In this document: piece after piece, positions 45,991 to 59,592 of the stretch
Layout of the letters: every line of letters starts with the position of its first letter
How positions within the stretch are numbered: position 1 is the stretch's first letter
DNA from: Alphaproteobacteria bacterium
Lineage (GTDB): Bacteria > Myxococcota_A > UBA796 > GCA-2862545
Length of the DNA: 64,000 bases
Reading direction: 5' to 3'
Assembly (NCBI GenBank): GCA_020632925.1
Contig: JACKER010000007.1
Coordinates: 308,910-372,909, forward strand
Program-made: the position numbers and the translations under genes
Notes under the pieces: generated by a model
Told to the model about the DNA's origin: nothing
The model's input: only the letters and a program-made list of their open reading frames with translations
Databases searched by the model: none

Positions 45991-46911
45991 ATGGTCCAGT
46001 CCGTCATCGTCATCGGCGGCCTCGCACTGTTCGAGGTGATCAGCTCGATCGACAACGCGATCGTCAACGCGACCGTGTTGAAGACGCTCCCGGAGAAGTA
46101 CCGCCGCCTGTTCCTGGTGTGGGGGCTCCTCGTCGCCGTCGTCATCGTCCGCGGCGTGCTCCCGTTCCTCATCGTGTGGCTGGCGAGCCCGGAGATGTCC
46201 CTCATGGACACGCTCCACCTCGTGTTCTCGCAGCCCAAGAAGATGGAGGAGGCGCTGCACACCAGCAAGCCGCTGCTGCTGCTGGGCGGCGGGGTGTACC
46301 TGCTCTACGTCTTCCTCGGCTGGCTCTTCCTCGAGGAGAAGAAGTACGCGTTCCTGGTGGAGCACTTCGTCCATCGGCAGGCGGTCTGGTTCAACGCCGT
46401 CGCCGCCATCGTGATGTGCACGATCATCTACTTCGGGGTGCGAGGCGACAACCCGATGTTGGCGTTGTCCGCCGCTATCGGCTCCATGGCCTTCTTCGTG
46501 ACGGACGGGTTCCGGAAGAACGCGGAGGAGGCGGAGGAGCGGCTGCAGACCCAGGCGCTGTCGGCCTGGAGCAAGCTGCTCTACCTCGAGGTGCTGGACG
46601 CGAGCTTCTCGATCGACGGGGTCATCGGGGCCTTCGCGTTCACGCTGTCGGTGCCCCTGATCCTCATCGGCAACGGGCTCGGCGCGCTGGTCGTCCGCGA
46701 GGTCACCATCCGGGGCGTCGATCTGGTGTCCAAGTTCGCGTACCTGAAGAACGGCGCGATGTACTCGATCGGCATGTTGGGCGCGCTCATGATCGCGGAG
46801 TCCTTCGGCCACCACTTCCCCTTCTGGGTGGCGCCGATGAACACGCTGGTGCTGTTGTTCGTGTTCCTCGGGCTGTCCGTCCGCGAGCTCCGCATGGCGA
46901 AGGCGCTCTGA
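45991..46911 (+). CDS. TerC/DUF475-family integral membrane protein
   Basis: SIDNAIVNA motif. Multi-pass membrane protein. AGGAG RBS. Confidence 0.6.
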   Translation: MVQSVIVIGGLALFEVISSIDNAIVNATVLKTLPEKYRRLFLVWGLLVAVVIVRGVLPFLIVWLASPEMSLMDTLHLVFSQPKKMEEALHTSKPLLLLGGGVYLLYVFLGWLFLEEKKYAFLVEHFVHRQAVWFNAVAAIVMCTIIYFGVRGDNPMLALSAAIGSMAFFVTDGFRKNAEEAEERLQTQALSAWSKLLYLEVLDASFSIDGVIGAFAFTLSVPLILIGNGLGALVVREVTIRGVDLVSKFAYLKNGAMYSIGMLGALMIAESFGHHFPFWVAPMNTLVLLFVFLGLSVRELRMAKAL

Positions 46912-48264: not shown

Positions 48265-49995
48265 ATGGACGGAGGTTCGCGCGTCGCGGAGGTCCTGCGG
48301 GCACACGGGGTGCCGTTCCTGTTCACGCTCGTGGGTGGGCACATCTCGCCGATCCTGGTGGGCGCGAAGCAGCGCGGCATCCGCGTCGTCGACGTGCGGC
48401 ACGAGGTGAACGCGGTGTTCGCCGCCGACGCCGTCGCGCGCCTGACCGGGATCCCGGGCGTGGCCGCGGTGACCGCCGGTCCGGGCGTGACCAACGCGCT
48501 GACCGCCATCAAGAACGCGCAGCTGGCGCAGTCGCCCATCGTGCTGCTCGGCGGCGCCACCGCGACCATCCTGCGCGGGCGCGGATCGCTCCAGGACATC
48601 GATCAGACCGCGCTCATGAAGCCCCACGTGAAGTGGATGGCGCGCCCCAACCGCCTGGTCGAGGTCGTGCCGGCGCTCGAGGAGGCCTTCCACCACGCGA
48701 TGGAGGGTGTCCCCGGCCCGGTGTTCGTCGAGCTCGCGGTCGACCTCCTGTACGACCGGAAGATCGTGCGCGAGTGGTCCGCGAAGCAGCTCGACAAGCC
48801 CAACAAGACCATCGGCGAGCGCGCGATCTCCGCCTATGTCCGCGGCCACCTCCGCTGGACCTTCTCGGGCAGCAAGGACCCGCGCTTCCACGCGCCCAAG
48901 CCGGTCCCCGTGCCGACGCCCGCCGAGCGCGAGCTGGGCAAGGCGGTGGAGCTTCTGTCGAACGCGGAGCGGCCGCTGCTCGTGCTCGGGTCGCAGACCA
49001 TGCTGCACCCGAACCGCGTGAACGAGCTGGTCGAGGCCGTCGAGCGGCTCAACGTCCCGGTCTACCTCTCGGGGATGGCGCGGGGGCTGCTGCCCGCCGG
49101 CCACCGGCTGCTCTTCCGCCACAAGCGGCGCGATGCGCTCAAGCAGGCCGACGTCGTGCTGCTCTCCGGCGTCCCCAACGACTTCCGCCTCGACTACGGC
49201 AGCCACGTGAGCCGCTGCTCGGTGATCGGCGTGAACCTCTCGAAGGAGGACCTCACGAAGAACCGGCGCCCGCAGGTGGGCATCCTCGCGGACCCGCACC
49301 ACACCATCGTCTCCCTGTCGCACAAGGTCGCGAGCAAGGACCGCGCGGGCTGGCTCGAGACGCTCGCGGGTCGCGACGCCGGGCGTGAGTCGGAGATCGA
49401 CGCGATGGCGGGTGCCGCGACGGACGAGGACCGCCTGAACCCGGTGCGCTTCTGCCGCCAGATGAACACCGCGCTGGCCGACGACAGCGTGCTGGTCGGG
49501 GACGGCGGCGACTTCGTCGCGACCGCGGCGTACACGGTCTCTCCTCGCCGTCCTCTCTCCTGGCTGGACCCTGGCGTGTTCGGGACGCTCGGGGTCGGCG
49601 CGGGCTTCGCGCTCGGCGCCAAGCTCGTGCGCCCGGACGCCGACGTGTGGCTGCTGTGGGGCGACGGCGCCGCAGGCTTCTCGCTCGTCGAGATGGACAC
49701 CTTCGTCCGCCACGGGCTGCCGGTGATCGCGGTCGTGGGCAACGACGCCGGCTGGACCCAGATCCTGCGCGACCAGGAGCCCATGCTCGGCGACGACGTG
49801 GCCTGCCGCCTGGCGTACACCGACTACCACGAGGTCGCGAAGGGCTTCGGCGCCGCCGGCCTGCGGGTCTCGGACCACGACAAGGTCGACGGCACGCTCG
49901 AGGAGGCCATCTCCACCAGTCGCGCGGGTCAGCCCGTGCTGGTCAACGCCATCCTCGGCTCGACGGACTTCCGGAAGGGCTCGATCTCGATGTAG
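48265..49995 (+). CDS. Thiamine-pyrophosphate enzyme, acetolactate synthase large subunit-like (ILVBL/HACL-like)
   Basis: 576 aa. TPP-binding GDGAAGF… motif. N-terminal Pyr domain. GGGGAGG RBS. Confidence 0.75.
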
Positions 49996-49996
49996 C

Positions 49997-52894
49997 TCAG
50001 AACTCGAAGCCGACGTTCGCGAGGAAGGACCGGCCCTGCTGGGGCATCGTGCGGCTCGCGAACGTGTCGGTGACGGGGATGGCGTAGGCCTGGTCGAACA
50101 CGTTGTAGGCGCCGACGGAGTAGGTCAGGCCGCTGTTCGGCGGGGAGCCCGACAGCACGAGGTCGGCGACCACCGCGGTGTCCGTCTCCCGCTCGCTCAG
50201 CGTGTTGATGCGGCGCGGGGCCTCGAGGGTCGCCCGGAACGCGATGCGGGCGTACGGCTCGGAGATGGGCGCGATCACCTTCGCGGAGGCGAAGTGGTAG
50301 GGGGCGTTCGGGATCCGCACGTTCGTCCCATCCTCCTCGATCGCGTCCGCGAACAGGAACCCGTACATCCCCGTGAACATCCACCCGCCGCGGTAGTCCC
50401 GGGCCAGCTCGAAGTCCATGCCTCGCGTGAACAGCGGATCCTCGCCGTTCTGGTACACGATGGCGTCCGGGAAGTCCTCGCCCGCGGGCACGGTGGTCAT
50501 GATGCCGTCGGCGCGGGCGAAGTGCCCGGAGATCAGCGCGCGCACACCACCCTCGAAGGAGTGGGTGGCCTCGAGCTCCGCCGAGAGCACCGACTCCGGG
50601 CGCAGCTCGATGCCCAGGTCGTCCGGCGGCACCTGGAAGAAGCCGCCGTCGTTGTACGTGAGCTCGTAGGCGCTGGGGGCGCGGAAGGCGCGGCCGCCCA
50701 TGAGCTTCACGACGTCGCGCTCGGTGGGCTTCACGATGACCGCGAGCCGTGGGTTCACGCTGGCGCCGAAGGTCGACCAGTAGTCGACGCGCGCGCCCGT
50801 CGAGGTCCGCAGCCAGTCCGTGGGCCGCCAGTCGAGCACCGTGTACGCCGCGAGGATGCTGTAGGGGAGTGACTCGTCGAGGTAGACGTCGACGTTGCCG
50901 CCCGGGAACTCGGTCTGGCCGTCCAGGGTGAGGACGAAGGAGCCGTCCACCTCGGCGCCCGTGGTCCAGCGGACCTGGTCGGTGTCGAGCACACCGCGGA
51001 CCTCGCCACCTGCCCAGCGCCCGCGGTACACCTCGGGGTTGACGACGACGGCGTCGATGTCGCGCGACGGGTCGTAGATGTAGGTCCCGTCGAAGTCGTA
51101 CATGTTCGCGAAGCCGCGCGTGAAGAGCTGGAAGCTGTCGGAGAGCTTCGGCTCGTAGCGCAGCTCGAACAGCCCGCGACGGTCCGTCCACACCGTGTCC
51201 GGGTTTCCGAACTGCGTGCCGTAGGCGCCGGTCGGGATGGACTGGCTGCGCACGGTGTAGAACCACTGCGCCGTGACGGGGCCCGCCCAGCCGTTGCCGG
51301 CGAGGGTGTACGCCGTGAAGGCATCGAAGCCGTCGACCACGGTCGGGACGGTCTCGCCTCCCTGGCGGAGCTCGAGCGTCTCCTGCCGTCCATCGCTGCG
51401 GGCGCCCGCCAGGCTGGCCCAGAAGCCCTTGTCGCCGCCGTTCACCGTGACGCTGCCGCGCGCTCGCATGACGCCGTTGTCGTACCCGCCGACGGCGACC
51501 TGCCCGGAGGTGGGCCGGTCGTGGGAGCGCGTCACGAGGTTGACGACGCCGCTGACCGCGCCCGTGCCGTAGAGCACGGACCCCGGGCCGCGGACGACCT
51601 CGATCCGCTCGACGTCGCCGAGGTCGGTGCGACCGTCGTAGCCGATGAAGGACTGGTACAGGATGTTGTCGTTGAGGACCGCGCCGTCCGACAGGATCAG
51701 CAGGCGGTTGCCGAAGTCGTTGGCCTGCCCGAGCCCGCGGACCGCCACCGAGCTGTACGTCGAGTCGAAGCCGAGCGCGGTGCCGCGCACGCCTCGCAGC
51801 GCCTCGTAGATCGTCGGGTAGGCGAAGGCGCGCAGCTCGGCGCCCGTGATGACGGAGACCGAGGAGGGCGCGTCGACGATGGCCTCCTCGGCGCGGGAGG
51901 CGGCGCTGACGAGCGAGGCGGGGACGAGCACGATGCCCGACAGGTCGACCTCGCGCTCCTCGCTCACGGTCACGGTGGTCTCGAAGGACTCGTAGCCGCG
52001 GAGCGACACCTTCACGACGCGCTCGCCGACGGGGACCCCCGTGAGCACGCTCGGGGTGAAGCCCATGGGCCGGCCGTCGACCTCGATGACCGCGTCGCGC
52101 TCGTCCGCGCTGACCACGAGGGTGCCCGTGATCGGCAACAGCTCGGGCGAGATCGTGATCTGCTGGTCGCGCTCCACGTCGACGATGCGGGGCACGCCGC
52201 GGAAGCCTTCGCGCACGAAGTACAGCAGCTGCTGACCGGGTGGCAGATCGGTCGTGCAGGGGGTCGTGCACAGCTCGGGTCCGCTGTCGCTCCCGAGGTG
52301 GACGACCGTGCCCGGATCCCCCTCGATCCGGACCTGACCGACGATGGGGACGAGCTCGAAGGACAGCTCCTGCGTCCGTCCTCGGGTCAGCGCGAACTCG
52401 TCGGTGGCGACCGACTCGTGGCCGTCGAGCCGGAGCAGGAATCGGTGCTTGCCGGGGGTGTACGCCAGGACCGTCGGCGTGGTCGCGACGGAGCCCAGGT
52501 CCTCGCGGTCGACGAACACGGTCGCGCCGGGCGGGTCGGTCGTGATCTCGACCAGCGCCACGCGGGGGGCGATGCGACGCAACGACTCGTCGATCGCCGC
52601 CAGCGCGTCGGGGCGCTCCTCGCCGACCCGGGCGTCCTGGAACCAGCGGTAGGCCTCCGGGTACTGCTCGAGCGCCTCGTACGTCCGACCGATGTTGAAC
52701 ATGACTGAGCGATTCGGGGCGAGCCGGTTCGACTGCAGGTAGAAGACCAGGGCCTCGGAGAACCGTCCCTCCTGGTACGCCTCGGTCGCCAGACGGAAGG
52801 CGGCGTCGGCCTCGTCGGCTGAGCCGCCCGCGAGGGCGGGGATGGACAGGGCGAGGAGGGCGACGCAGGTCGCGAGGCGGAGGTGAGCGAGCAC
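49997..52894 (-). CDS. TonB-dependent outer-membrane receptor with N-terminal TPR + PEGA extension
   Basis: Signal peptide. TonB-box/plug region. C-terminal …NVGFEF terminal Phe. 965 aa. Confidence 0.75.
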   Translation of the reverse strand: MLAHLRLATCVALLALSIPALAGGSADEADAAFRLATEAYQEGRFSEALVFYLQSNRLAPNRSVMFNIGRTYEALEQYPEAYRWFQDARVGEERPDALAAIDESLRRIAPRVALVEITTDPPGATVFVDREDLGSVATTPTVLAYTPGKHRFLLRLDGHESVATDEFALTRGRTQELSFELVPIVGQVRIEGDPGTVVHLGSDSGPELCTTPCTTDLPPGQQLLYFVREGFRGVPRIVDVERDQQITISPELLPITGTLVVSADERDAVIEVDGRPMGFTPSVLTGVPVGERVVKVSLRGYESFETTVTVSEEREVDLSGIVLVPASLVSAASRAEEAIVDAPSSVSVITGAELRAFAYPTIYEALRGVRGTALGFDSTYSSVAVRGLGQANDFGNRLLILSDGAVLNDNILYQSFIGYDGRTDLGDVERIEVVRGPGSVLYGTGAVSGVVNLVTRSHDRPTSGQVAVGGYDNGVMRARGSVTVNGGDKGFWASLAGARSDGRQETLELRQGGETVPTVVDGFDAFTAYTLAGNGWAGPVTAQWFYTVRSQSIPTGAYGTQFGNPDTVWTDRRGLFELRYEPKLSDSFQLFTRGFANMYDFDGTYIYDPSRDIDAVVVNPEVYRGRWAGGEVRGVLDTDQVRWTTGAEVDGSFVLTLDGQTEFPGGNVDVYLDESLPYSILAAYTVLDWRPTDWLRTSTGARVDYWSTFGASVNPRLAVIVKPTERDVVKLMGGRAFRAPSAYELTYNDGGFFQVPPDDLGIELRPESVLSAELEATHSFEGGVRALISGHFARADGIMTTVPAGEDFPDAIVYQNGEDPLFTRGMDFELARDYRGGWMFTGMYGFLFADAIEEDGTNVRIPNAPYHFASAKVIAPISEPYARIAFRATLEAPRRINTLSERETDTAVVADLVLSGSPPNSGLTYSVGAYNVFDQAYAIPVTDTFASRTMPQQGRSFLANVGFEF

Positions 52895-52906
52895 GTGGGC
52901 TCCGGA

Positions 52907-54415
52907 TCAGCGGGTGAGGTTGATCTCGCGTCCCTTGGGGGCGGCCTGCTCGGGGGCGGGCTCGGGACGCACGGGGCGGGGAGTGGTGGGTGCGACCGGA
53001 CGTGGGCGCTGCGCGGGTCGGACCGGCACGAGGTCGGCGGACACCCGGCGGTCGCCTCCACCGAAGCCGAGGACGACCTGAAAGGGCTCGTGTCCGTCGA
53101 GCGCCAGGACGAGGGTGCGCTCGGGGTCCTGCTCGCGGACCTCGAGCACCAGCGGCGTCGTGCCGAGCGTCCGATCCCCGTCGCGGACCTCGGCGCCAGG
53201 AGGCACCGACACGATCGTGACCTGCTCGGGGGTGGTGGCGACGGGTGCCGGCTCGGGCGACGGAGGCAGCGCTGGCGCGGACACGGGCGCGGGCTCGGGT
53301 GTGGCCGGCGGCCCGCCGGCGGTGCGAGCGACACCCGACACCAGGAACCCCAGGCCGACGATCGCGATCGCCAGCAGGCCGATCGCGACCAGCACGAGCG
53401 CGCCCACCAGCGGGAGGTTCGAGCCGCGGCGCTGCTCGACCGGGAGCATCGGGGGCGGCGTCGTCGGGGCCGAGATCGGCGTCACCGGCGGCGGCGGCTC
53501 CTGCTCGCGTTGGGGGCGCGGCGGGGTGACGCGGTTGGGCAGCGGCGCAGGGGTGGGCGCCATCATCAACGGGGAGGCCTCGGCCTCCTGCCGAGAGCCC
53601 ACGACCGCTTCGACGACGTCGAGCAGCTCTGGCGGCACGACCGTGTGCCCCTGCTCCAGGCGTGGCACGTGCTGCCAGCGCGTCGGATCGTCCAGGACGG
53701 CGACGACCACGGTGAGGGCGCGCCCCAGCTGGTCGACGGTGGCGAAGCGCTCGTTCGCGTCGCGGCGGAGCGCCGTGCGCAGCGCCCACTCCAGGCTCGC
53801 GGGGGCGGAGGCGAGCGCGGGGCCATCGTCGGGCTCCGTCCAGGTGCCGCCGCTGCACGCGAAGGCCACGATCGCGGCGATGGCGTACACGTCCTCGGTC
53901 GGGCCCGGGATTCGCCCAGGGACGTGCTCGGGCGCGGACGCGGGGTTGTGGGGGCGCTGGTACACCCTCGCGAACCCCCCGAGCTTCACGTGGTTCCAGG
54001 CGGCGCCGTGGCGGGTGATCCAGATGTCGTCCGCGCGGAGGTCACCGTGGACCAGCCCGGCGCGGTGGGCCGCGGAGAGCGCCTCGCAGAGCTGCTGGCC
54101 GACGTGCAGCGCTCGCGACAGGTCCATCGCGCCGCTCTCGACGGCCTCCGCGAGCGTCGTCCCGAACACGTGCTCGGTCGCGAGCCAGCTGCCCGTCTCC
54201 GAGGCGCCGTGGTCGAGGAGACGGACGAGGTGCGGGTCGGCGAGGCTCCTCCACAGCGCCAGACGGGACGCGTGGTGAGGGCTGCGCTCGACACGATCGG
54301 AGAGCTCGATGCCCACCGCTCGGCCATCGGGGCCTTCGGCTCGATGAACGCCGGGGAGGAGGTCCGAGTCCGCTGGTAGCCGGTACTTACCGGCGAGGCG
54401 GTCACTGGTCGACAT
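52907..54415 (-). CDS. Pseudokinase (degenerate Ser/Thr kinase fold) with TM and C-terminal PEGA domain
   Basis: HGDLRADDI in place of HRDLKxxN. No Gly-rich loop and no VAIK Lys. GGF in place of DFG. Pro-rich linker. PEGA-like C-terminus. Confidence 0.55.
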   Translation of the reverse strand: MSTSDRLAGKYRLPADSDLLPGVHRAEGPDGRAVGIELSDRVERSPHHASRLALWRSLADPHLVRLLDHGASETGSWLATEHVFGTTLAEAVESGAMDLSRALHVGQQLCEALSAAHRAGLVHGDLRADDIWITRHGAAWNHVKLGGFARVYQRPHNPASAPEHVPGRIPGPTEDVYAIAAIVAFACSGGTWTEPDDGPALASAPASLEWALRTALRRDANERFATVDQLGRALTVVVAVLDDPTRWQHVPRLEQGHTVVPPELLDVVEAVVGSRQEAEASPLMMAPTPAPLPNRVTPPRPQREQEPPPPVTPISAPTTPPPMLPVEQRRGSNLPLVGALVLVAIGLLAIAIVGLGFLVSGVARTAGGPPATPEPAPVSAPALPPSPEPAPVATTPEQVTIVSVPPGAEVRDGDRTLGTTPLVLEVREQDPERTLVLALDGHEPFQVVLGFGGGDRRVSADLVPVRPAQRPRPVAPTTPRPVRPEPAPEQAAPKGREINLTR

Positions 54416-54567
54416 CCGAAACGTGTAGCGCAGCTCGTGTGACGAATGTTACCCTTCTATGGCAGTACCCATATTGTCAGCATTCATGCCTGGTGATGGG
54501 CGGGTGTGTTTTCGTTGACATTGCGTCATGGTGGCGCGGGAGCCCTCGATGGGCCCCCAGTGGGCGT
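54416..54567. promoter_or_regulatory. Lower-GC intergenic block, putative internal promoter
   Basis: gaatgttacccttctatggcagtacccatattgtcagcattcatgcc is distinctly AT-richer than its surroundings. Confidence 0.3.
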
Positions 54568-56586
54568 TCAGCGGCAGGGGACGCCGTTCTCGTCGACCCA
54601 GATCGGCCGCCTGACCCCCGTCATGAGCAGCGTGACCTCACGGCAGCGTGAGCCCGACAACGTCGCGGCCCGGTGGATCAGCTCGGAGAGCTGCCGATCC
54701 TCGGGGTGACCCGGGCGTGCGGCGTCGTCGGCCAACCCGGCGATCCGGTCGAAGCTCGTCCCCATGACGTAGGGGCTGTGGCGGAGGCGCTCCGCGAACA
54801 GCGCAGTCGTCACGGCCATCCGGTGGTCCCGCGAGGCCTCCTCGAACGAGGGCTGCATCGCCGCCGTCGGCATGGCGTAGCTCCACTCCGTGGACGCGGT
54901 GTCGGCGCCCGGGGGCTTCCCGCGCAGGCGGACGGTGGCGAGCTCGCCGGTGCTCCCGCGCACCCGCTCCACCTCGTAGAGCGCGGTCACGGTGTGCCCG
55001 GCCCCGACCTCGCCGGCGTCGATCGCGTCGTCGGCGAAGTCCCGGTCGCGCAGGGCGCGGTTCTCGTACCCGACCTGGCGATAGCGGACGACCGTCTCGG
55101 GGTTCCACGCCACCTGGATCTTCACGTCGCGGGCGACGACCTCGAGGGTGGAGGTGAGCTCGTCGACGAAGATGCGCTTCGCCTCCTCCTCGCCGTCCAC
55201 GTAGTAATAGTTGCCGTCGCCGTCGTTCGCGAGCTGCTCCATCCGGGCGTCCTGGTAGTTGCCCTGCCCGAAGCCGAGCGTGGTGAGCGTGATGCCCTCC
55301 TTCGCGTACCGGCGGATGCCGTCGGTCAGCGTGCCCGTCGTCGTGACCCCGACGTTGGCGTCGCCGTCGCTGGCGATGATCACGCGGTTCGTGTGGCCCG
55401 GGCGCAGCGTCTGGTGTGCCAGATCGTAGGCGAGCTGGATGCCCTGGCCCATCGCGGTGGAGCCGCCGGCCCTGAGCCGGTCGAGCGAGCGCAGGATGGT
55501 GGCCTGGTCGGTCGCCGGCGTCACGGGCAACACCACCCCCGCCGAGCCCGAGTAGGTCACGATGGCGACGGTGTCGCCGTCCTGCAGCTGCTCCACGAGC
55601 ATGCCGAGCGAGGTCTTCACGAGCTCGAGGCGGTCCCGGCCCTGCATCGAGCCGCTGGTGTCCACCAGGAACACCAGGTGCACGGGCTGGCGCTGGGTCG
55701 CGTCTCGCGCGGCGACCGTGATGCGCACGAGCTCGTTGTCGGACACGGGCGACGGGCTCCCCTCGAACTGGACCGCGAACGGCCCGCTCTCGGGCTGCGG
55801 CACGTCGTAGTCGAGCGCGTTGACGAACTCCTCGGTGCGGACGCTGGCCGGGTCAGGGAGGAAGCCCTGGCGCAGCTGGCGGCGCGCCCAGGTGAACGAG
55901 CCGCGGTCCACGTCGATGGAGAAGGTGGAGAGGGGCTGCTCGCGGGTGTCGCGGAACGGGGAGACGCCGTGGTCCTCGAAGCCGTCGTGGCCGGTCGGGT
56001 CGGCCATGGGCGGGATCTCGATCGTGCCGTCGATGTCGCCGTCGGCCGGGCCGGCGTACCCCAGAGACCTCAGGACCTCGTCCAGCCCATCGCCTTCGGC
56101 GTGCGGCTTCCTGACCGGCGCCTTGACGACGAGCCTGCTGCGGAGTGCCTCCGGCGGCACGTCCGTCGCGTACCTCTCGGCGCCGGGCCGCGCGGGACGC
56201 TCGCTCACGATCGTCGTCGTGTCCGTCGCGACCACGACCTCCGCGGGCGTGGGCTCGCCGCGCGTCGTGAACAGGAGCGCACCGCCGCCGCCGAGGACGA
56301 CCGCCGACAGTGACGCGGCCATCAGCGCGGAGACGCCGCCGAGCCACATCCAGCGGCGGTTCGCCGGCTTCGGCATCACGCGGGCCTCGAGCCCTTCGGG
56401 CACCAGCGTCGGCTCGGGCACGGCGCGGGCGAAGCGCTGGTCGAAGCGCTCCCGCAGGGCGGGCACGGCGTCCAGCGCCAGCGCCACCTCGTCGGCGAGG
56501 TCCTCGCCCGAGGCCGGGTCCCAGGCGTCGATCAGCGCGCCCAGTCGCTCGATCTCCTTCTCGGTCCAGGTGTGCTCGGCGCTCAT
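54568..56586 (-). CDS. Anti-sigma factor-like membrane protein with a periplasmic vWA domain (YfbK/DUF3520-like)
   Basis: ATGA overlap with the ECF sigma stop. TM segment. vWA MIDAS motif DTSGSM…. DUF3520-like C-terminus. The track ORF over-extends to 56928. Confidence 0.65.
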   Translation of the reverse strand: MSAEHTWTEKEIERLGALIDAWDPASGEDLADEVALALDAVPALRERFDQRFARAVPEPTLVPEGLEARVMPKPANRRWMWLGGVSALMAASLSAVVLGGGGALLFTTRGEPTPAEVVVATDTTTIVSERPARPGAERYATDVPPEALRSRLVVKAPVRKPHAEGDGLDEVLRSLGYAGPADGDIDGTIEIPPMADPTGHDGFEDHGVSPFRDTREQPLSTFSIDVDRGSFTWARRQLRQGFLPDPASVRTEEFVNALDYDVPQPESGPFAVQFEGSPSPVSDNELVRITVAARDATQRQPVHLVFLVDTSGSMQGRDRLELVKTSLGMLVEQLQDGDTVAIVTYSGSAGVVLPVTPATDQATILRSLDRLRAGGSTAMGQGIQLAYDLAHQTLRPGHTNRVIIASDGDANVGVTTTGTLTDGIRRYAKEGITLTTLGFGQGNYQDARMEQLANDGDGNYYYVDGEEEAKRIFVDELTSTLEVVARDVKIQVAWNPETVVRYRQVGYENRALRDRDFADDAIDAGEVGAGHTVTALYEVERVRGSTGELATVRLRGKPPGADTASTEWSYAMPTAAMQPSFEEASRDHRMAVTTALFAERLRHSPYVMGTSFDRIAGLADDAARPGHPEDRQLSELIHRAATLSGSRCREVTLLMTGVRRPIWVDENGVPCR

Positions 56587-57110
56587 CGTCCCACCCCCTC
56601 GTCGGCGGCCACCGCCGCCAGCGTGCCCCGCAACGTGAGCCGCCCCCGAGCGACCCTGCTGGCGACCGTGCCGGGGGGCACCCCGAGCACGCCCGCGGCC
56701 TCCGCGAACGAGAAGCCCTGCCCGTCGATCAACCACACGGCCTCCCGCTGATCCGCGGGCAGCCCGTCCATCGCGTCCGACAGCCGCTGACCGAGCTGTC
56801 TGCGCTCCGCCTGCCGATCGGGTCGCGCCCGATCCAGAGGGATCACCTGTCCCTCCGTTCCTTCGTCGAGCTGCACCTCGTCCCTCCGCGGCCGGCTGTT
56901 CAGGAAGGTCGTGTAGAGGACGCGGCACTGCCAGACCTCGAAGGCGCCGTCGTCCTGGAGCTGGGAGAGGCGTGCGAGCCCACGGAGCAGGGACTGTTGG
57001 ACGAGGTCCTCGGCGGTCACCGGATCCCGGGTCAGCCGCACCGCGAACCGGTACAGGGTCCCCAGGACGGGTCGTACCAGCCGCTCGAACCTCGCGTGGT
57101 CTCTGCCCAT
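56583..57110 (-). CDS. ECF-type RNA polymerase sigma factor
   Basis: Sigma-70 region 2 and region 4 (…DLVQQSLLRGLARLSQ…, …FSFAEAAGVLGVPPGTVASRVARGR). Alternative start at 57131. Confidence 0.75.
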   Translation of the reverse strand: MGRDHARFERLVRPVLGTLYRFAVRLTRDPVTAEDLVQQSLLRGLARLSQLQDDGAFEVWQCRVLYTTFLNSRPRRDEVQLDEGTEGQVIPLDRARPDRQAERRQLGQRLSDAMDGLPADQREAVWLIDGQGFSFAEAAGVLGVPPGTVASRVARGRLTLRGTLAAVAADEGVGR

Positions 57111-57164
57111 CGTGCTCGTCGTCGCTCCCACCGGACGGACAGGGTCAGCCGCGGATCTCGTCCA

Positions 57165-58088
57165 TCATTCCCGAAAAAAGATCCGAGAGGGGCGAGAGTC
57201 GGCGATGAACGGTCCATACGTGGAGCCGTCCTCCCGCTCGAGGAGCCAGGCGTGGGTGGACCAGGTGGGTTGTGCGCGCAGCTCACCGGGGGCGACGACC
57301 CCGTAATCGCGCCGCTCGCCCCGGTGATCGAGCCACCACAGGCGCCAGGTGGCGTCGGTGGTGTTGTGGACGACGATGTCGGTGGGGAGCCTGCCGCGGC
57401 CGGAGCGCCTGCGGTCGACCGGGCGAAGCGTGGTCCAGCGGACCCTGCCCGGCGCGCGACGTCCGCCGAGGACGGCGTCGATCAGCTCGAAGGAGACGGG
57501 GTCGTAGGCCCGGAGCCCGTCGGGACCGTCCGCTGGCGGGGAGGGGAGACGCCCGTGGTCGCCGCGGCTGCCGACCCACCACATCGCGAGCTCGGCGAAG
57601 AACTCCTCGGCGTTGGTGCCGGCGTAGGCCTGGTTCCAGCGGCCCTCGGCGAGCGCCTCGGCGTGCCGGCGGCGGACCGCGTCGCGCAGCGGGCGGTCGA
57701 GGCCGAACGAGAGCACCGCGTGCGCGAGCTCGTGGGCGCAGATGTCGCGGTGGTCGCGGTGCCGCGCGGTGGGCAGGCGGAGGAGCGAGTCCTCGTCGAC
57801 GCAGGCGTGCAGCCCGCCGTAGCCACGGCCCCGCTCGTCCACGGTCTGGCCGTCGAAGCGGGGGAGGCTCTTGAGGTGGCGCAGCCCGGGCAGGTCGGAG
57901 GGCACCTGGTCGCGTCCGATCAGGTGGAGCTCGACGCCGGCCTCTTCCAGGTTCGCGACCACCCCGGGACACCGTCCCAGCAGCCGCTCGATGCGCCGCT
58001 CCGCCTCGTCCAGCGCCTCGTCCGGCACGGCGGCGTGTGCTCGGACGGTCACCCCGCGCCGCACGCGCTCCTTCGAGAAGAAGCTCAC
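57165..58088 (-). CDS. Zinc-dependent peptidase, MtfA/M90-like (HExxH … EEFFAE)
   Basis: CAHELAHAV + …NAEEFFAELAMWW glutamate-zincin pattern. GTG start in GTGA overlap with the Kir stop. Confidence 0.55.
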   Translation of the reverse strand: MSFFSKERVRRGVTVRAHAAVPDEALDEAERRIERLLGRCPGVVANLEEAGVELHLIGRDQVPSDLPGLRHLKSLPRFDGQTVDERGRGYGGLHACVDEDSLLRLPTARHRDHRDICAHELAHAVLSFGLDRPLRDAVRRRHAEALAEGRWNQAYAGTNAEEFFAELAMWWVGSRGDHGRLPSPPADGPDGLRAYDPVSFELIDAVLGGRRAPGRVRWTTLRPVDRRRSGRGRLPTDIVVHNTTDATWRLWWLDHRGERRDYGVVAPGELRAQPTWSTHAWLLEREDGSTYGPFIADSRPSRIFFRE

Positions 58089-58978
58089 GCGGAGTGTCCA
58101 GGGAGGGTGAGCGCCGCGGGCTTCACCTCGTGGATCCTCGAGAAGTCCACGAATCGCTCGCCGTTGGCATCGGTACCGAACAGGTCGACGAACTTGTACC
58201 CGAAGCGGATCTCGTCGGCCTGCCAGAGGTGGCGCGCGTGGACGGAGGACGCGAGCGAGTCGTCGATGCCCGTCAGCGTGACGATGAGCATGGTCCGCTC
58301 CCGAGCGAAGTCCGCTGGACCCTTGCCCCACATGGGGCTGCTCTCGTCGATCGGGTGGTAGACCACCCAGGACACGCCGAACATCGGGCTCGTCCGGCGA
58401 CGAACGGGCAGGTCGTAGATCCGGCGCACCGTCTCGCCGTCCGCCAGCACCTCCTCGCGGGTCAGGCTGAACGTGACCGTGGCCTCGACGATGGCGGTGG
58501 ACCGCGCGTTCGCGCAGCGGAACATCAGGGTCGGCACCCCCTCGATGTCCGCGACCACGCAGGTCTCGCTGAAGGCCACGCGGGCGGACGGCGTGCTGAA
58601 CTTCCCGTAGAAGACGCCGGTGACGACGGCGGTGTACACCACGCCGACGAAGCTCTCGAGCGTCACGATGGCGTGGGACAGCCAGTCGTCGGGCGACAGG
58701 CCGCCGTACCCGATGGTCGCCATGGTCTGGACCGAGAAGTAGAACCGCGGCCAGAAGCCCGGCTCCGCGCCGGTGATCGCCGCCCCCGTCACCCAGAGCA
58801 GCAGACCGAAGAAGCCGTTCAGCGCGAGGTAGATCAGGAGGAAGACCAGCGTCAGCTGACCCCAGGAGAGCGTGCGCAGGGCGTGGTACCCGTCGGTCCC
58901 GAGCCGCGTCCACAGCCGATCGTCGACGCCGGCACGGCGGATGGCGAACACGTTCTTGGGGCCGGTCGTGGCCTGCAT
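58085..58978 (-). CDS. Inward-rectifier-type potassium channel (Kir-like)
   Basis: TIGYG selectivity filter. 2 TM plus a cytoplasmic Ig-like domain. 297 aa. Confidence 0.75.
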   Translation of the reverse strand: MQATTGPKNVFAIRRAGVDDRLWTRLGTDGYHALRTLSWGQLTLVFLLIYLALNGFFGLLLWVTGAAITGAEPGFWPRFYFSVQTMATIGYGGLSPDDWLSHAIVTLESFVGVVYTAVVTGVFYGKFSTPSARVAFSETCVVADIEGVPTLMFRCANARSTAIVEATVTFSLTREEVLADGETVRRIYDLPVRRRTSPMFGVSWVVYHPIDESSPMWGKGPADFARERTMLIVTLTGIDDSLASSVHARHLWQADEIRFGYKFVDLFGTDANGERFVDFSRIHEVKPAALTLPGHSA

Positions 58979-58995
58979 CGGTCGGCGGCGCTCGC

Positions 58996-59592
58996 TCACG
59001 TCGGACCTCGCTTCAGCCCCACGCCACGGCCGTCGATGCGATGCAGCAGGTCGTCCACCATGCGCAGCGTCAGACCCCAGAGCCGCGGGTGCGACAGCCC
59101 CCGGAGCTCGACCGCGGGAAGCGTCAGGCGCTGGTCTCCGCGCTCCCAGGTCATCGTCGTGCGGCCCTCGCCCGAGAGCAGGTCGGACAGCGCGACGGTG
59201 TGCGTCCCCGCCACCTCCGAGGGGTTGGGGCGCAGCGGGGGCAGCTGGCCGGGGAGGAGGAAGACGTAGGGCCGGATGACCATCCCGGGGCGTCCCCCGA
59301 CCGCGGCCAGGTCGTCGAGTCGGCCGAGCAGCTGCGCGTCGTGCAGATCGAGCCCGACCTCCTCCACCGTCTCGCGCCTCGCCGCGTCGAGGGGTTCCTC
59401 TTCGGGCTCCACGCGACCACCCGGGAACGACAGGTGGCCGGACCACGGGTCGTTCGGATGCTCGGTTCGCTTCAGCAGCAACAAGTCCAGGTCCGCCGTG
59501 AAGATGGCCGATACGGCTGCCCAACCGGCGGTCGGTCGGAGCGACGTCACCGGGCGGGACAGAGCTTCACGAAGGGTCTCGGACGTGGTCAT
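58996..59592 (-). CDS. NUDIX hydrolase (CoA pyrophosphatase-like)
   Basis: Nudix box GHLSFPGGRVEPEEEPLDAARRETVEEVG. LLLKR upstream motif typical of NudL. Confidence 0.7.
   Translation of the reverse strand: MTTSETLREALSRPVTSLRPTAGWAAVSAIFTADLDLLLLKRTEHPNDPWSGHLSFPGGRVEPEEEPLDAARRETVEEVGLDLHDAQLLGRLDDLAAVGGRPGMVIRPYVFLLPGQLPPLRPNPSEVAGTHTVALSDLLSGEGRTTMTWERGDQRLTLPAVELRGLSHPRLWGLTLRMVDDLLHRIDGRGVGLKRGPT

What the first reader, a model, noticed from the sequence alone, without database searches (positions are those of the whole stretch)
49997..57131. Non-canonical cell-surface-signalling-like cluster: ECF sigma, vWA anti-sigma, PEGA pseudokinase and a TonB-dependent receptor with TPR/PEGA extension
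Four co-directional genes. The sigma and anti-sigma genes overlap by ATGA. A 152-bp AT-richer spacer then precedes a pseudokinase, and the receptor follows 12 nt later. Classic FecI/FecR/FecA systems use an STN signalling domain on the receptor and a FecR anti-sigma. Here the anti-sigma carries a vWA/DUF3520 periplasmic domain. The receptor N-terminus carries TPR plus PEGA instead of STN. A membrane pseudokinase with the same PEGA domain sits between them. The shared PEGA domains suggest a periplasmic interaction module linking receptor, pseudokinase and possibly the anti-sigma. This would be a variant trans-envelope signalling architecture.
Basis: partly seen in the sequence, partly recalled or inferred. 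Interest (0 to 1): 0.7.

Follow-up and report, generated by a model that had tools for sequence, protein, structure and literature searches.

The report
Kinase-coupled TonB receptor beside ECF pair
The four genes are two independent two-gene units lying side by side: a catalogued type of sigma/anti-sigma pair, and a catalytically dead membrane kinase partnered with an outer-membrane TonB-dependent receptor; I found no published description of that second pairing, which recurs across many myxobacteria and may carry signals from the cell surface to the cytoplasm.

Summary
Gene limits, the ATGA overlap, the 152-nt and 12-nt gaps and all domain calls were reproduced. There is no STN or FecR domain, and the kinase lacks every catalytic motif.

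The interpretation as one four-gene signalling system is not supported.

(1) The ECF sigma and vWA/DUF3520 anti-sigma form a self-contained pair. It matches the context that defines group ECF289. In 5 orthologous and 46 more distant loci the pair never has a TonB receptor or kinase beside it. Its conserved promoter-like motif is absent from the 152-nt spacer.

(2) The kinase and receptor form a different conserved pair. Of 47 Polyangia loci with a full-length receptor homologue, 36 carry a single-pass Hanks kinase ending in [D/E]-I-[R/K]-x-x-R. In 30 of them it is directly adjacent, often translationally coupled. Those kinases are catalytically intact; the window's copy is a degenerate orthologue that keeps the membrane helix, PEGA-like domain and tail (EINLTR).

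(3) The tail's acidic residue covaries with an arginine in the receptor's TPR groove helix. A prediction from this held in Chondromyces.

Best reading: the receptor's TPR docks the kinase tail. This would be a kinase-based variant of cell-surface signalling, silenced or reduced to a scaffold here.

The parts
56583..57131 (-). ECF sigma factor (module 1). ORF from GTG 57131; the likely true start is ATG 57110 (175 aa).
   Evidence: Pfam Sigma70_r2 and r4_2; NCBIfam sigma70-ECF 70.6 bits against a cut-off of 42.9. 98% identical to the L085 orthologue annotated at 175 aa; 65-69% identical to L086, L087 and L089.
57135..57163 (-). Conserved bipartite motif GGAY-N19-GTCCGT upstream of the sigma gene; inferred autoregulatory ECF-type promoter.
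   Evidence: Present at the same spacing upstream of all 5 sigma orthologues. It is the only perfect copy in the 64-kb window.
54568..56586 (-). Single-pass anti-sigma-like protein (module 1). Short cytoplasmic N-domain (res 1-78), membrane helix (about 79-106; 56269-56352), periplasmic vWF_A-VWA-YfbK_C/DUF3520 (res 201-660; 54607-55986) with the MIDAS motif DTSGS.
   Evidence: Pfam. ATGA overlap with sigma. Orthologues at 52-84% identity always follow an ECF sigma with a 4-nt overlap. Distant orthologues keep HxxxCxxC with weak zf-HC2 hits.
54416..54567 (-). 152-nt spacer, GC 0.58, marking the boundary between the two modules. It probably holds the promoter of the kinase-receptor pair (inferred).
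   Evidence: Sequence; GC. No sigma-70-like or ECF-motif match and no terminator on the coding strand. The DNA after the anti-sigma gene in the 84% relative L085 is unrelated.
52907..54415 (-). Bitopic pseudokinase (module 2). Degenerate Hanks kinase domain (res 1-250; 53666-54415), Pro-rich linker, membrane helix (res 341-359; 53339-53395), PEGA-like domain (res 397-462; 53030-53227), Pro-rich arm.
   Evidence: Alignment with 19 receptor-linked active kinases. AF2 pLDDT 85.6, with PknB, PknA and Stk1 as best PDB matches. No close homologue in 5.8e9 proteins.
52910..52927 (-). C-terminal tail E-I-N-L-T-R-COOH of the pseudokinase, a member of the conserved [D/E]-[I/L]-[R/K/Q/N]-x-x-R tail; proposed docking peptide.
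   Evidence: 22 of 23 same-strand adjacent kinases carry the tail, once the RLREHR variant of three Sorangium kinases is counted (19 match the strict pattern), against 6 of 18 other kinases in the same loci. 32 of the top 149 PEGA hits in 1.84e9 representatives end this way; nine are full-length kinases by motif and four inspected short ones are N-truncated kinase fragments.
49997..52894 (-). TonB-dependent receptor with a periplasmic N-terminal extension (module 2). Signal peptide (res 1-22), Plug (res 340-450; 51545-51877), beta-barrel (res about 460-965; 50000-51517).
   Evidence: Pfam Plug 3e-18 and barrel 2e-16. More than 120 full-length homologues at 44-53% identity, mostly Polyangia.
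52562..52825 (-). TPR module of the receptor extension (res 24-111): two TPR repeats plus a capping helix. Residues E28, F33, S55, R57, N61, N67 and R83 are invariant; R70 is the covarying arginine.
   Evidence: AF2 pLDDT 94.2, helices 24-41, 45-58, 62-74, 78-89 and 95-111. Foldseek: consensus TPR 1na3 (TM 0.86), also the peptide-binding TPRs 1elw, 2vyi and 3kd7. Invariant residues over 120 sequences.
51932..52558 (-). Three tandem PEGA / transthyretin-like beta-sandwich domains (res 113-321), with the invariant pair C209/C213 in the second.
   Evidence: Pfam PEGA, 3 stretches. AF2 strands. Foldseek matches to tandem Ig-like and carboxypeptidase-D regulatory domains. Invariant residues.

Best explanation
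The region holds two independent two-gene modules that merely abut.

Module 1 (54568-57131) is an ECF sigma factor translationally coupled to a single-pass anti-sigma. The anti-sigma's periplasmic part is a vWF_A-VWA-DUF3520 unit with a MIDAS site. This is the context that defines ECF group ECF289. Inferred mechanism: an unknown periplasmic ligand or metal acts on the vWA domain, the sigma is released, and it drives its own GGAY-N19-GTCCGT promoter. The receptor is not its input.

Module 2 (49997-54415) belongs to a pair conserved in Polyangia: an inner-membrane Hanks Ser/Thr kinase and a TonB-dependent receptor. The kinase has a cytoplasmic kinase domain, one membrane helix, a Pro-rich arm, usually a PEGA domain, and the C-terminal tail [D/E]-I-[R/K]-x-x-R. 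The receptor carries a periplasmic extension of two TPR repeats and three PEGA-like sandwiches ahead of a TonB-box-like segment, plug and barrel.

Inferred mechanism for module 2: the kinase tail docks in the TPR groove, with tail position -6 (Asp/Glu) against TPR Arg70. Ligand- or TonB-driven movement of the receptor's N-terminus would then be reported to the kinase, which phosphorylates cytoplasmic targets. This would be a kinase-based analogue of FecA-FecR signalling.

In this genome the kinase has lost its Gly-loop, beta3 Lys, HRD Arg, DFG Asp and most of its activation segment. It keeps the fold, membrane helix, PEGA-like domain, tail (EINLTR) and the matching Arg70. It therefore most likely survives as a non-catalytic partner or scaffold of the receptor.

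Shown: domain content, conservation and independence of the two pairs, loss of catalytic motifs, and tail-TPR covariation. Inferred: physical docking, direction of signalling, ligand and targets.
For: Independence of the modules:
- No sigma or anti-sigma homologue lies within 10 kb of the receptor in any of the 47 loci analysed for a full-length receptor homologue (tblastn; phmmer).
- Five orthologous sigma/anti-sigma pairs all have a 4-nt overlap, variable downstream genes, and no receptor or kinase.
- Of 46 metagenomic vWA relatives, 26 have an ECF sigma detectable nearby, in nearly all cases just upstream on the same strand, and none has a TonB receptor or kinase.
- ECF289 is defined by a DUF3520+vWF anti-sigma at position +1 (PMC7826278).
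- The promoter-like motif is conserved upstream of all 5 sigma genes and unique in the window; the spacer has no match beyond chance.

Kinase-receptor pair:
- The kinase cluster is the only widely conserved neighbour, present in 31 of 41 loci.
- 36 of 47 loci hold a tail-bearing kinase, and in 30 it is directly adjacent.
- Gaps of -4 to +15 nt occur in 14 of 19 upstream cases.
- Enrichment: 24 kinases among 79 adjacent genes against 17 among 425 other genes, Fisher p 3e-11; for tail-bearing kinases p 3e-15.
- All 19 aligned partners are catalytically intact.
- A second, more distant subfamily also pairs an active PEGA kinase with a TPR-bearing TonB receptor, with a different tail.

Docking:
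- The TPR holds the most conserved polar residues of the extension.
- The model is confident, and its TPR part resembles consensus TPR proteins and also peptide-binding TPRs.
- Arg70 is kept in all 26 adjacent pairs with an acidic residue at tail position -6. It is replaced (L, S, L) in the three lineages whose tails are non-acidic: Sorangium RLREHR, L002 PVFRGNR, Chondromyces TLWLQR. The Chondromyces case was predicted before it was looked up. Fisher p 6e-6, not corrected for phylogeny.
Against: - No experiment or complex model supports the contact.
- The covariation amounts to only three lineage events and has one exception: L048 has tail PAIKAER with Arg kept.
- Eleven of 47 receptor loci show no tail kinase; some of these are cut by contig ends.
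- One tail-bearing kinase (P0287) is not beside a receptor.
- The window's kinase has no close homologue, so purifying selection on it could not be tested. It may be a decaying relic.
- No terminator separates the two modules on the coding strand, so read-through from the sigma operon in this genome is possible.
- The sigma's membership of ECF289 was judged from context only, not with the group's HMM.
Confidence: 0.6

Rival explanations
1. One reading: all four genes form one non-canonical cell-surface signalling system. The receptor signals through the PEGA pseudokinase to the vWA anti-sigma, which releases the ECF sigma.
For: The genes are co-directional and adjacent, with no terminator predicted on the coding strand in the 152-nt spacer. 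All three envelope proteins have periplasmic domains.
Against: 0 of 51 loci with the sigma/anti-sigma pair or its relatives contain a TonB receptor or kinase. None of the 47 receptor loci analysed contains the sigma or anti-sigma. The sigma's promoter-like motif is not upstream of the kinase. The DNA after the anti-sigma gene differs in the 84% relative L085.
Confidence: 0.07
2. The kinase and receptor are co-expressed because they act in one pathway, for example the kinase controlling uptake genes, but they do not touch. The conserved tail serves another partner or a periplasmic protease.
For: Gene linkage alone does not prove contact. One tail-bearing kinase lies away from any receptor. Sorangium paralogue loci have the tail kinase 6-9 kb away.
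Against: The tail -6 / TPR Arg70 covariation, including a fulfilled prediction. The tail is essentially confined to receptor-linked kinases. The TPR is the common feature of both receptor subfamilies linked to kinases.
Confidence: 0.15
3. In this genome the pseudokinase is a decaying remnant without function, and the receptor works alone as an ordinary TonB-dependent transporter.
For: All catalytic motifs are lost and the activation segment is shortened. No close homologue exists in 5.8e9 proteins. Its third-codon-position GC is slightly lower (0.90-0.92) than its neighbours' (0.96). Some receptor homologues (L094, L095) have no adjacent kinase.
Against: The 502-codon frame is intact, with a GGAG-linked 12-nt junction to the receptor. 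The membrane helix, PEGA-like domain, tail and the matching Arg70 are all retained. The kinase fold is still predicted with confidence.
Confidence: 0.13
4. The kinase's Pro-rich periplasmic arm and tail act mechanically, as a TonB-like tether or energiser that positions the receptor, rather than as a signal receiver. The cytoplasmic kinase domain would then be an accessory.
For: The layout resembles TonB: a membrane helix, a Pro-rich rod (for example KPDKPDKPDPKPDKPDKPDKK in L033) and a C-terminal binding element. The periplasmic part survives here although catalysis is lost.
Against: No ExbB/ExbD-type partner or TonB C-terminal domain is present. The receptor keeps its own TonB-box-like segment before the plug (VSAASR...DAPSSVSVIT). 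Kinase catalytic motifs are strictly conserved in 19 of 19 partners, which argues that phosphorylation is the output.
Confidence: 0.05

Closest known systems
FecA-FecR-FecI cell-surface signalling (TonB-dependent transducers)
   Same: An outer-membrane TonB-dependent receptor carries a periplasmic N-terminal extension ahead of the TonB box. It is genetically paired with a single-pass inner-membrane protein that would carry the signal to the cytoplasm.
   Different: The extension is TPR plus three PEGA-like sandwiches, not STN. The partner is a Hanks Ser/Thr kinase (dead in this window), not a FecR anti-sigma. The output would be phosphorylation, not sigma release. The neighbouring ECF pair is not linked to the receptor in any other genome examined.
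ECF group ECF289 (Casas-Pastor et al. 2021, PMC7826278)
   Same: [quoted passage not shown] The window pair has exactly this context, with a 4-nt overlap.
   Different: The group HMM was not available, so sigma membership is by context only. The window anti-sigma has lost the HxxxCxxC zinc motif that distant orthologues keep. The group's signal and regulon are unknown.
TagQRST-PpkA threonine phosphorylation pathway of the Pseudomonas aeruginosa H1-T6SS (own knowledge; papers listed but not read)
   Same: From my own knowledge: envelope components outside the inner membrane (outer-membrane TagQ, periplasmic TagR) activate a single-pass Hanks kinase through its periplasmic domain.
   Different: From my own knowledge: the sensor there is a lipoprotein/periplasmic protein set and the kinase's periplasmic domain is vWA-like. 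Here the partner is a TonB-dependent receptor with a TPR, and the kinase has a PEGA domain and a C-terminal tail. No T6SS link is conserved.
Peptide-binding TPR domains such as Hop TPR1 with the Hsc70 tail (PDB 1elw), SGT TPR (2vyi) and the designed CTPR390 with an Hsp90 peptide (3kd7); the role of charged groove residues is from my own knowledge
   Same: A short TPR binds a partner's extreme C-terminal peptide through conserved Asn, Arg or Lys residues in the groove. The receptor's TPR matches these folds. Its invariant Asn67 and covarying Arg70 lie on helix A2.
   Different: There are only two repeats plus a cap. The setting is periplasmic, and the peptide is D-I-R-x-x-R rather than EEVD. 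Binding is inferred, not shown.

Membership tests
FecIRA-type cell-surface signalling | STN (secretin/TonB N-terminal) signalling domain on the receptor | tested here: not met
   Pfam at E<=0.1 finds TPR, PEGA, Plug and the barrel, but no STN. The AF2 model of res 1-332 is TPR plus three beta-sandwiches.
FecIRA-type cell-surface signalling | FecR-type anti-sigma (FecR domain / C-terminal signalling domain) | tested here: not met
   The anti-sigma has vWF_A, VWA and YfbK_C only.
FecIRA-type cell-surface signalling | Conserved genetic linkage of sigma, anti-sigma and receptor | tested here: not met
   0 of 47 receptor loci have the sigma or anti-sigma. 0 of 51 sigma/anti-sigma or vWA-relative loci have a receptor.
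ECF sigma factors, group ECF289 | Sigma with sigma2 and sigma4 domains only | tested here: met
   Sigma70_r2 and r4_2 in a protein of 175-182 aa; TIGR02937 70.6 bits against a cut-off of 42.9.
ECF sigma factors, group ECF289 | [quoted passage not shown] | tested here: met
   YfbK_C/DUF3520 3.6e-39, VWA 3e-24, vWF_A 2e-22; ATGA overlap. Definition from PMC7826278.
ECF sigma factors, group ECF289 | Sigma sequence assigned by the group-specific HMM | not testable with these tools
   The ECF Hub HMMs and the paper's supplements are not held.
TonB-dependent transporters | Plug domain inside a C-terminal 22-strand beta-barrel | tested here: met
   Plug 66.7 bits and TonB_dep_Rec_b-barrel 61.4 bits, both above their cut-offs. 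The strand count was not determined.
TonB-dependent transporters | TonB box preceding the plug | tested here: inconclusive
   A conserved segment (REV.AASR; window LVSAASR) lies about 12 residues before DAPSSVSVIT. It resembles VVTASR-type TonB boxes from my own knowledge. No model-based test was made.
Hanks-type (eukaryotic-like) Ser/Thr protein kinases | Bilobal protein-kinase fold | tested here: met
   AF2 pLDDT 85.6, pTM 0.84. Best PDB matches are PknB, PknA, Stk1, PknI and PknE, TM about 0.7. Pfam Pkinase scores 31.0 bits against a cut-off of 31.7.
Hanks-type (eukaryotic-like) Ser/Thr protein kinases | Catalytic residues: Gly-rich loop, beta3 Lys, HRD, catalytic-loop Asn, DFG Asp | tested here: not met
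   The window has DSDLLPG, VGIE, HGD, DD and GFA at the positions where 19 of 19 partner kinases have GxGGMG, VAxK, HRD, xN and DFG. It is therefore a pseudokinase.
Receptor-linked tail kinase / TPR-TonB receptor pair (defined in this work) | Single-pass kinase-fold protein adjacent to a TonB receptor with an N-terminal TPR | tested here: met
   12-nt gap to the receptor. Membrane helix at res 341-359. The same arrangement occurs in 30 of 47 loci.
Receptor-linked tail kinase / TPR-TonB receptor pair (defined in this work) | C-terminal tail [D/E]-[I/L]-x-x-x-R-COOH, matched by Arg at the N-[IV]-[AG]-R position of TPR helix A2 | tested here: met
   The window tail is EINLTR and the receptor has NIGR with R70.
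PEGA domain proteins | PEGA domain above the Pfam gathering score | tested here: inconclusive
   Receptor: met, 93.1 bits against 20.8. Pseudokinase: 15.7 bits, below the cut-off, but phmmer with its periplasmic part retrieves PEGA-repeat proteins at E down to 5e-19.

The most novel reading that the evidence does not exclude
Polyangia, and at least one more distant myxobacterial lineage, may use a class of TonB-dependent transducers for which I found no published description. In this class the receptor's periplasmic TPR captures the C-terminal tail of a single-pass Hanks Ser/Thr kinase, so that events at the outer membrane are converted into cytoplasmic phosphorylation instead of sigma-factor release. 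The window would carry a naturally kinase-dead version, which suggests a phosphorylation-independent scaffold role for the periplasmic contact.
Probability: 0.45. Interest if true: 0.8.

Novelty: new variant of a known kind. Interest (0 to 1): 0.62.

Why it matters
Signalling from TonB-dependent receptors across the envelope is known essentially in one form: an STN domain, a FecR-type anti-sigma and an ECF sigma. A conserved receptor-kinase pair would add a second output, Ser/Thr phosphorylation.

It would also give a first functional handle on some of the hundreds of orphan Hanks kinases in myxobacteria and on the PEGA domain. The proposed interface is simple to test: a six-residue tail, a two-repeat TPR and one predicted salt bridge.

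For annotation, the result is a caution. Two unrelated signalling modules lying in tandem can look like one novel operon.

Tried and rejected
- Context of the window's own receptor protein: not on record.
- Homologue search with the pseudokinase: nothing closer than 31% identity over 28% of the query, so no orthologue set and no dN/dS.
- ECF promoter-like motif in the spacer, searched as an exact 12-mer with up to 2 mismatches, as the bipartite motif with up to 1 mismatch, and with up to 3 mismatches and variable spacing: nothing beyond chance.
- The 1-mismatch copy of the motif at 46873-46884 lies inside the 3' end of the TerC-like gene and has no matching upstream half. I treat it as chance.
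- Sigma-70 promoter and terminator scan of 49800-57500: no promoter-like site, and only plus-strand hairpins.
- P0287, the closest periplasmic match, is a tail-bearing HLD kinase. Its neighbour is an Asp-rich repeat protein, not a receptor.
- Metagenome scan with the anti-sigma returned mostly distant vWA relatives rather than orthologues. It served only as a negative control for linkage.
- Literature searches for TonB-dependent with PEGA, threonine kinase, Hanks-type or the myxobacterial kinome found nothing describing the pair. The library lacks most subscription-journal papers, so this is not proof of novelty.
- Shared PEGA domains as the interaction module: rejected as the general explanation. 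Only 10 of 20 partner kinases score PEGA, and several have only a Pro/Ala-rich arm plus the tail.

Full report
**1. What is in the sequence**

The window is about 71% GC, so genes were defined by third-codon-position GC. Four co-directional minus-strand genes occupy 49997-57131.

- An ECF sigma ORF at 56583-57131.
- A 672-aa gene at 54568-56586 whose ATG overlaps the sigma stop (gacgATGAgc).
- A 152-nt spacer of GC 0.58.
- A 502-aa kinase-like gene at 52907-54415.
- A 12-nt gap containing GGAG, then a 965-aa receptor gene at 49997-52894.

Downstream there is a convergent TPP-enzyme gene. Upstream, 33 nt from the sigma ORF, lies a NUDIX / KirBac-like channel / VHL-beta-domain operon.

- Sigma: Sigma70_r2 and r4_2.
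- Anti-sigma: vWF_A, VWA and YfbK_C (DUF3520), with no FecR.
- Receptor: TPR, three PEGA stretches, Plug and barrel, with no STN.
- Kinase-like protein: a borderline Pkinase score (31.0 against 31.7 bits) and a sub-threshold PEGA (E 0.015).

The likely sigma start is ATG 57110 (175 aa), as in its 98%-identical orthologue.

**2. The sigma/anti-sigma pair is a unit of its own**

The anti-sigma has full-length orthologues at 84, 70, 62, 59, 55 and 52% identity. In the five contexts that could be read, a 175-180-aa ECF sigma precedes it with a 4-nt overlap. The next gene differs each time: a convergent PAS-GGDEF gene, VIT1, a hypothetical gene, or an arylsulfotransferase. In the fifth the contig ends.

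The 84% relative (L085) shares the upstream NUDIX-Kir-VHL synteny. Its DNA after the anti-sigma stop is an unrelated hairpin-like sequence, not the window's spacer.

A metagenome scan gave 46 more distant vWA/DUF3520 relatives. Of these, 26 have an ECF sigma detectable nearby, nearly always just upstream, and none has a TonB receptor or kinase within 8 kb.

A bipartite motif, GGAY-N19-GTCCGT, lies at fixed spacing upstream of all five sigma orthologues. The window has one perfect copy, at 57135-57163. The spacer has no match better than shuffled sequence gives.

The short cytoplasmic N-domain aligns with orthologues that keep HxxxCxxC and give weak zf-HC2 hits. The window protein has lost those ligands. 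The vWA domain keeps a MIDAS-type DTSGS motif.

**3. The kinase and receptor form a different, widely conserved pair**

The receptor has more than 120 full-length homologues at 44-53% identity, nearly all from Polyangia: Sorangium, Chondromyces, Minicystis, Byssovorax, Sandaracinaceae and Kofleriaceae.

A scan of one genome per species returned 45 loci with full-length homologues. Two protein look-ups added two more, giving 47. None has the sigma or anti-sigma nearby.

Clustering all called neighbours showed a single widely conserved neighbour family, protein kinases, present in 31 of 41 loci.

A six-frame rescan found a kinase with a characteristic C-terminal tail in 36 of 47 loci:
- In 30 it is directly adjacent to the receptor: mostly upstream on the same strand, 2 divergent, 4 downstream.
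- In 5 loci (a Sorangium-type paralogue group) it lies 6-9 kb away.
- Several of the 11 negative loci are cut by contig ends.

Junctions are tight, with gaps of -4 to +15 nt in 14 of 19 upstream cases.

Kinases make up 24 of 79 genes adjacent to the receptor but 17 of 425 other genes in the same loci (Fisher p 3e-11). For tail-bearing kinases the counts are 23 of 79 against 6 of 425 (p 3e-15). These tests are not corrected for shared ancestry.

**4. What the partner kinases look like, and what the window's copy has lost**

Nineteen partner kinases align as follows: Hanks kinase domain, linker, one membrane helix, a Pro-rich arm, a PEGA domain in about half, a second Pro-rich stretch, and an invariant C-terminal Arg within [D/E]-[I/L]-[R/K/Q]-x-x-R. 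All 19 keep GxGGMG, VAxK, the alphaC Glu, HRDxKPxN, DFG and SPE.

The window protein has none of these. It reads DSDLLPG, VGIE, HGDLRADD and GFA, and its activation segment is shortened. It does keep the membrane helix, the PEGA-like domain and the tail EINLTR.

Its N-terminal 260 residues are still modelled as a kinase fold (pLDDT 85.6, pTM 0.84). The best PDB matches are M. tuberculosis PknB and PknA and S. aureus Stk1. It has no close homologue among 5.8 billion proteins. It is a fast-diverged, catalytically dead member of the partner-kinase family.

The tail is specific to this family:
- 22 of 23 same-strand adjacent kinases have it, counting the RLREHR variant of three Sorangium kinases (19 match the strict pattern). 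Among other kinases in the same loci it is 6 of 18, and five of those six are the distantly linked Sorangium-type copies.
- None of 10 unrelated kinases retrieved by the pseudokinase has it.
- In a HMMER scan of 1.84 billion representatives with the window's periplasmic part, 32 of the top 149 hits end in the tail. Nine are full-length kinases by motif, and the four short ones inspected are N-truncated kinase fragments.

**5. The receptor extension and the docking hypothesis**

An AF2 model of receptor residues 1-332, built with 120 homologues, is confident (pLDDT 94.2). It shows a signal helix, five helices (24-111: two TPR repeats plus a cap) and three beta-sandwiches (113-321).

Foldseek matches the helices to consensus TPR (1na3, TM 0.86). 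It also matches peptide-binding TPRs: Hop TPR1 with the Hsc70 tail (1elw), SGT (2vyi), and a designed TPR with an Hsp90 peptide (3kd7). The sandwiches match tandem Ig-like and carboxypeptidase-D regulatory domains.

The most conserved polar residues of the whole extension are in the TPR: E28, S55, R57, N61, N67 and R83.

Pairing each receptor with its kinase shows a covariation:
- Every adjacent pair whose tail has Asp or Glu at position -6 keeps Arg at the N-[IV]-[AG]-R position of helix A2. This holds for 26 pairs, including the window (EINLTR with NIGR, R70).
- The four Sorangium pairs with tail RLREHR have NIAL.
- The L002 pair with tail PVFRGNR has NIAS.

I then predicted that other receptors without this Arg would have non-acidic tails. 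Chondromyces crocatus (NIAL) has an adjacent kinase ending TLWLQR, as predicted. Two receptors with NVGH or NVGT have no adjacent kinase at all.

There is one exception: L048 has PAIKAER with Arg retained. Fisher p is 6e-6, uncorrected for phylogeny and resting on three lineage events.

This is the main evidence that the tail contacts the TPR. It is suggestive, not proof. 

**6. A second subfamily**

In two Myxococcales MAG loci (L053, L063), an active kinase sits directly upstream of a more distant TonB receptor. PEGA scores only in the L063 kinase; in L053 the PEGA-like stretch is seen by eye. That receptor's extension is a TPR plus a Pro-rich linker without PEGA. These kinases end in a different shared tail: GYKGAY and FKDIPY.

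In L051 a similar kinase (YKENPY, PEGA scored) precedes a TonB receptor in which no TPR was detected.

In both receptor subfamilies the receptor-side constant is the TPR. This again points to the TPR, rather than the shared PEGA domains, as the coupling element.

**7. Mechanism, stated with its status**

Shown:
- There are two independent conserved gene pairs.
- The receptor has a periplasmic TPR-PEGA extension.
- The partner kinases are bitopic, with the kinase domain in the cytoplasm and the tail in the periplasm.
- The window's copy has lost its catalytic motifs.
- The tail covaries with the TPR.

Inferred:
- The tail docks in the TPR groove.
- Ligand- or TonB-induced movement of the receptor's N-terminus alters kinase activity.
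- The output is phosphorylation of unknown targets.
- In this genome the dead kinase acts as a scaffold or is on its way out.

The ligand of the receptor is unknown. Its barrel has only weak resemblance to siderophore receptors, and no TonB/ExbBD or uptake genes are adjacent.

**8. Comparison with known systems**

It would work like FecA-FecR signalling, with a Hanks kinase in the FecR position. It fails the membership tests for that family: no STN, no FecR and no conserved sigma linkage.

The sigma/anti-sigma pair matches the ECF289 context.

From my own knowledge, the nearest precedent for envelope components activating a bitopic Hanks kinase is TagQRST-PpkA of the P. aeruginosa H1-T6SS. Its parts are unrelated to these. 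The papers found on it were not read.

Five literature searches found no description of a TonB receptor-kinase pair or of PEGA in this role. The searchable library is incomplete, so this does not establish novelty.

**9. Verdict**

The four-gene interpretation is only partly supported.

The real feature of interest is the kinase-receptor pair. It appears to be an undescribed variant of cell-surface signalling, and this window carries a kinase-dead member of it. Interest 0.62; novelty: new variant of a known kind.

Noticed in passing
window 57165-59592 (- strand); L085 997-3316: A NUDIX hydrolase, a KirBac-like inward-rectifier K+ channel and a 307-aa protein with an HELAH metalloprotease-like motif and a VHL beta domain form a tight operon with 4-nt overlaps, directly upstream of the sigma gene. 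The same order is kept in the 84-98% relative L085.
   Followed up: partly
whole window; P0001, P0121, P0136: The source record is labelled 'Alphaproteobacteria bacterium' (MAG, locus tag H6735_...). Every close relative of the four proteins is from Myxococcota/Polyangia, and GC is 71%. The label looks wrong.
   Followed up: partly
L053 7573-11977; L063 7541-11986; L051 7355-11923: A second, more distant kinase / TonB receptor pairing. In L053 and L063 the receptor extension is TPR plus a Pro-rich linker without PEGA. The kinase tails end GYKGAY, FKDIPY and YKENPY instead of DIRxxR. No TPR was detected in the L051 receptor.
   Followed up: partly
P0129 (792 aa) and P0287 (466 aa; L090 4840-6240): Other genomes also hold PEGA-bearing kinases with degenerate motifs. 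P0129 has VALAQ, HGD and GFG and no tail. P0287 has HLD but DFG intact and the tail DDLILNR. Loss of catalytic residues may therefore recur in this kind of kinase.
   Followed up: partly
window 52256-52270 (receptor residues 209-213): A Cys-x-x-Pro-Cys motif (C209, P212, C213) in the second beta-sandwich of the receptor extension is invariant in 120 homologues. It may be a periplasmic disulfide.
   Followed up: no
window 54568-54660 (anti-sigma C-terminus): The anti-sigma ends with a roughly 25-residue extension bracketed by two cysteines (C-R-E-V...G-V-P-C-R). P0137, P0141, P0145 and P0146 share it; most other orthologues lack it.
   Followed up: no
alignment A6 (P0153, P0158, P0159, P0161, P0221): Distant orthologues of the anti-sigma keep an HxxxCxxC zinc-finger motif, with weak zf-HC2 hits. 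In the window protein and its closer relatives it is replaced by A...V..L, which suggests loss of a zinc or redox switch in this branch.
   Followed up: partly
L093 9121-13928 (Chondromyces crocatus CP012159.1): The Chondromyces kinase-receptor pair lies next to VgrG (Phage_GPD), DUF3540 and PAAR-like toxin genes, which are type VI secretion components. This was seen only in this locus.
   Followed up: no
window 46873-46884 (+): CTGTCCGTCCGC, one mismatch from the sigma-upstream motif, lies 27 nt before the DTW-domain gene start (46911), inside the end of the TerC-like gene. There is no matching upstream half, so it is probably chance.
   Followed up: partly
L085 5901-5960: Immediately after the anti-sigma stop, the close relative has an inverted repeat (ccctctcccagagggagaggg) that is absent from the window. 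The junction downstream of the anti-sigma therefore differs between these two close genomes.
   Followed up: no
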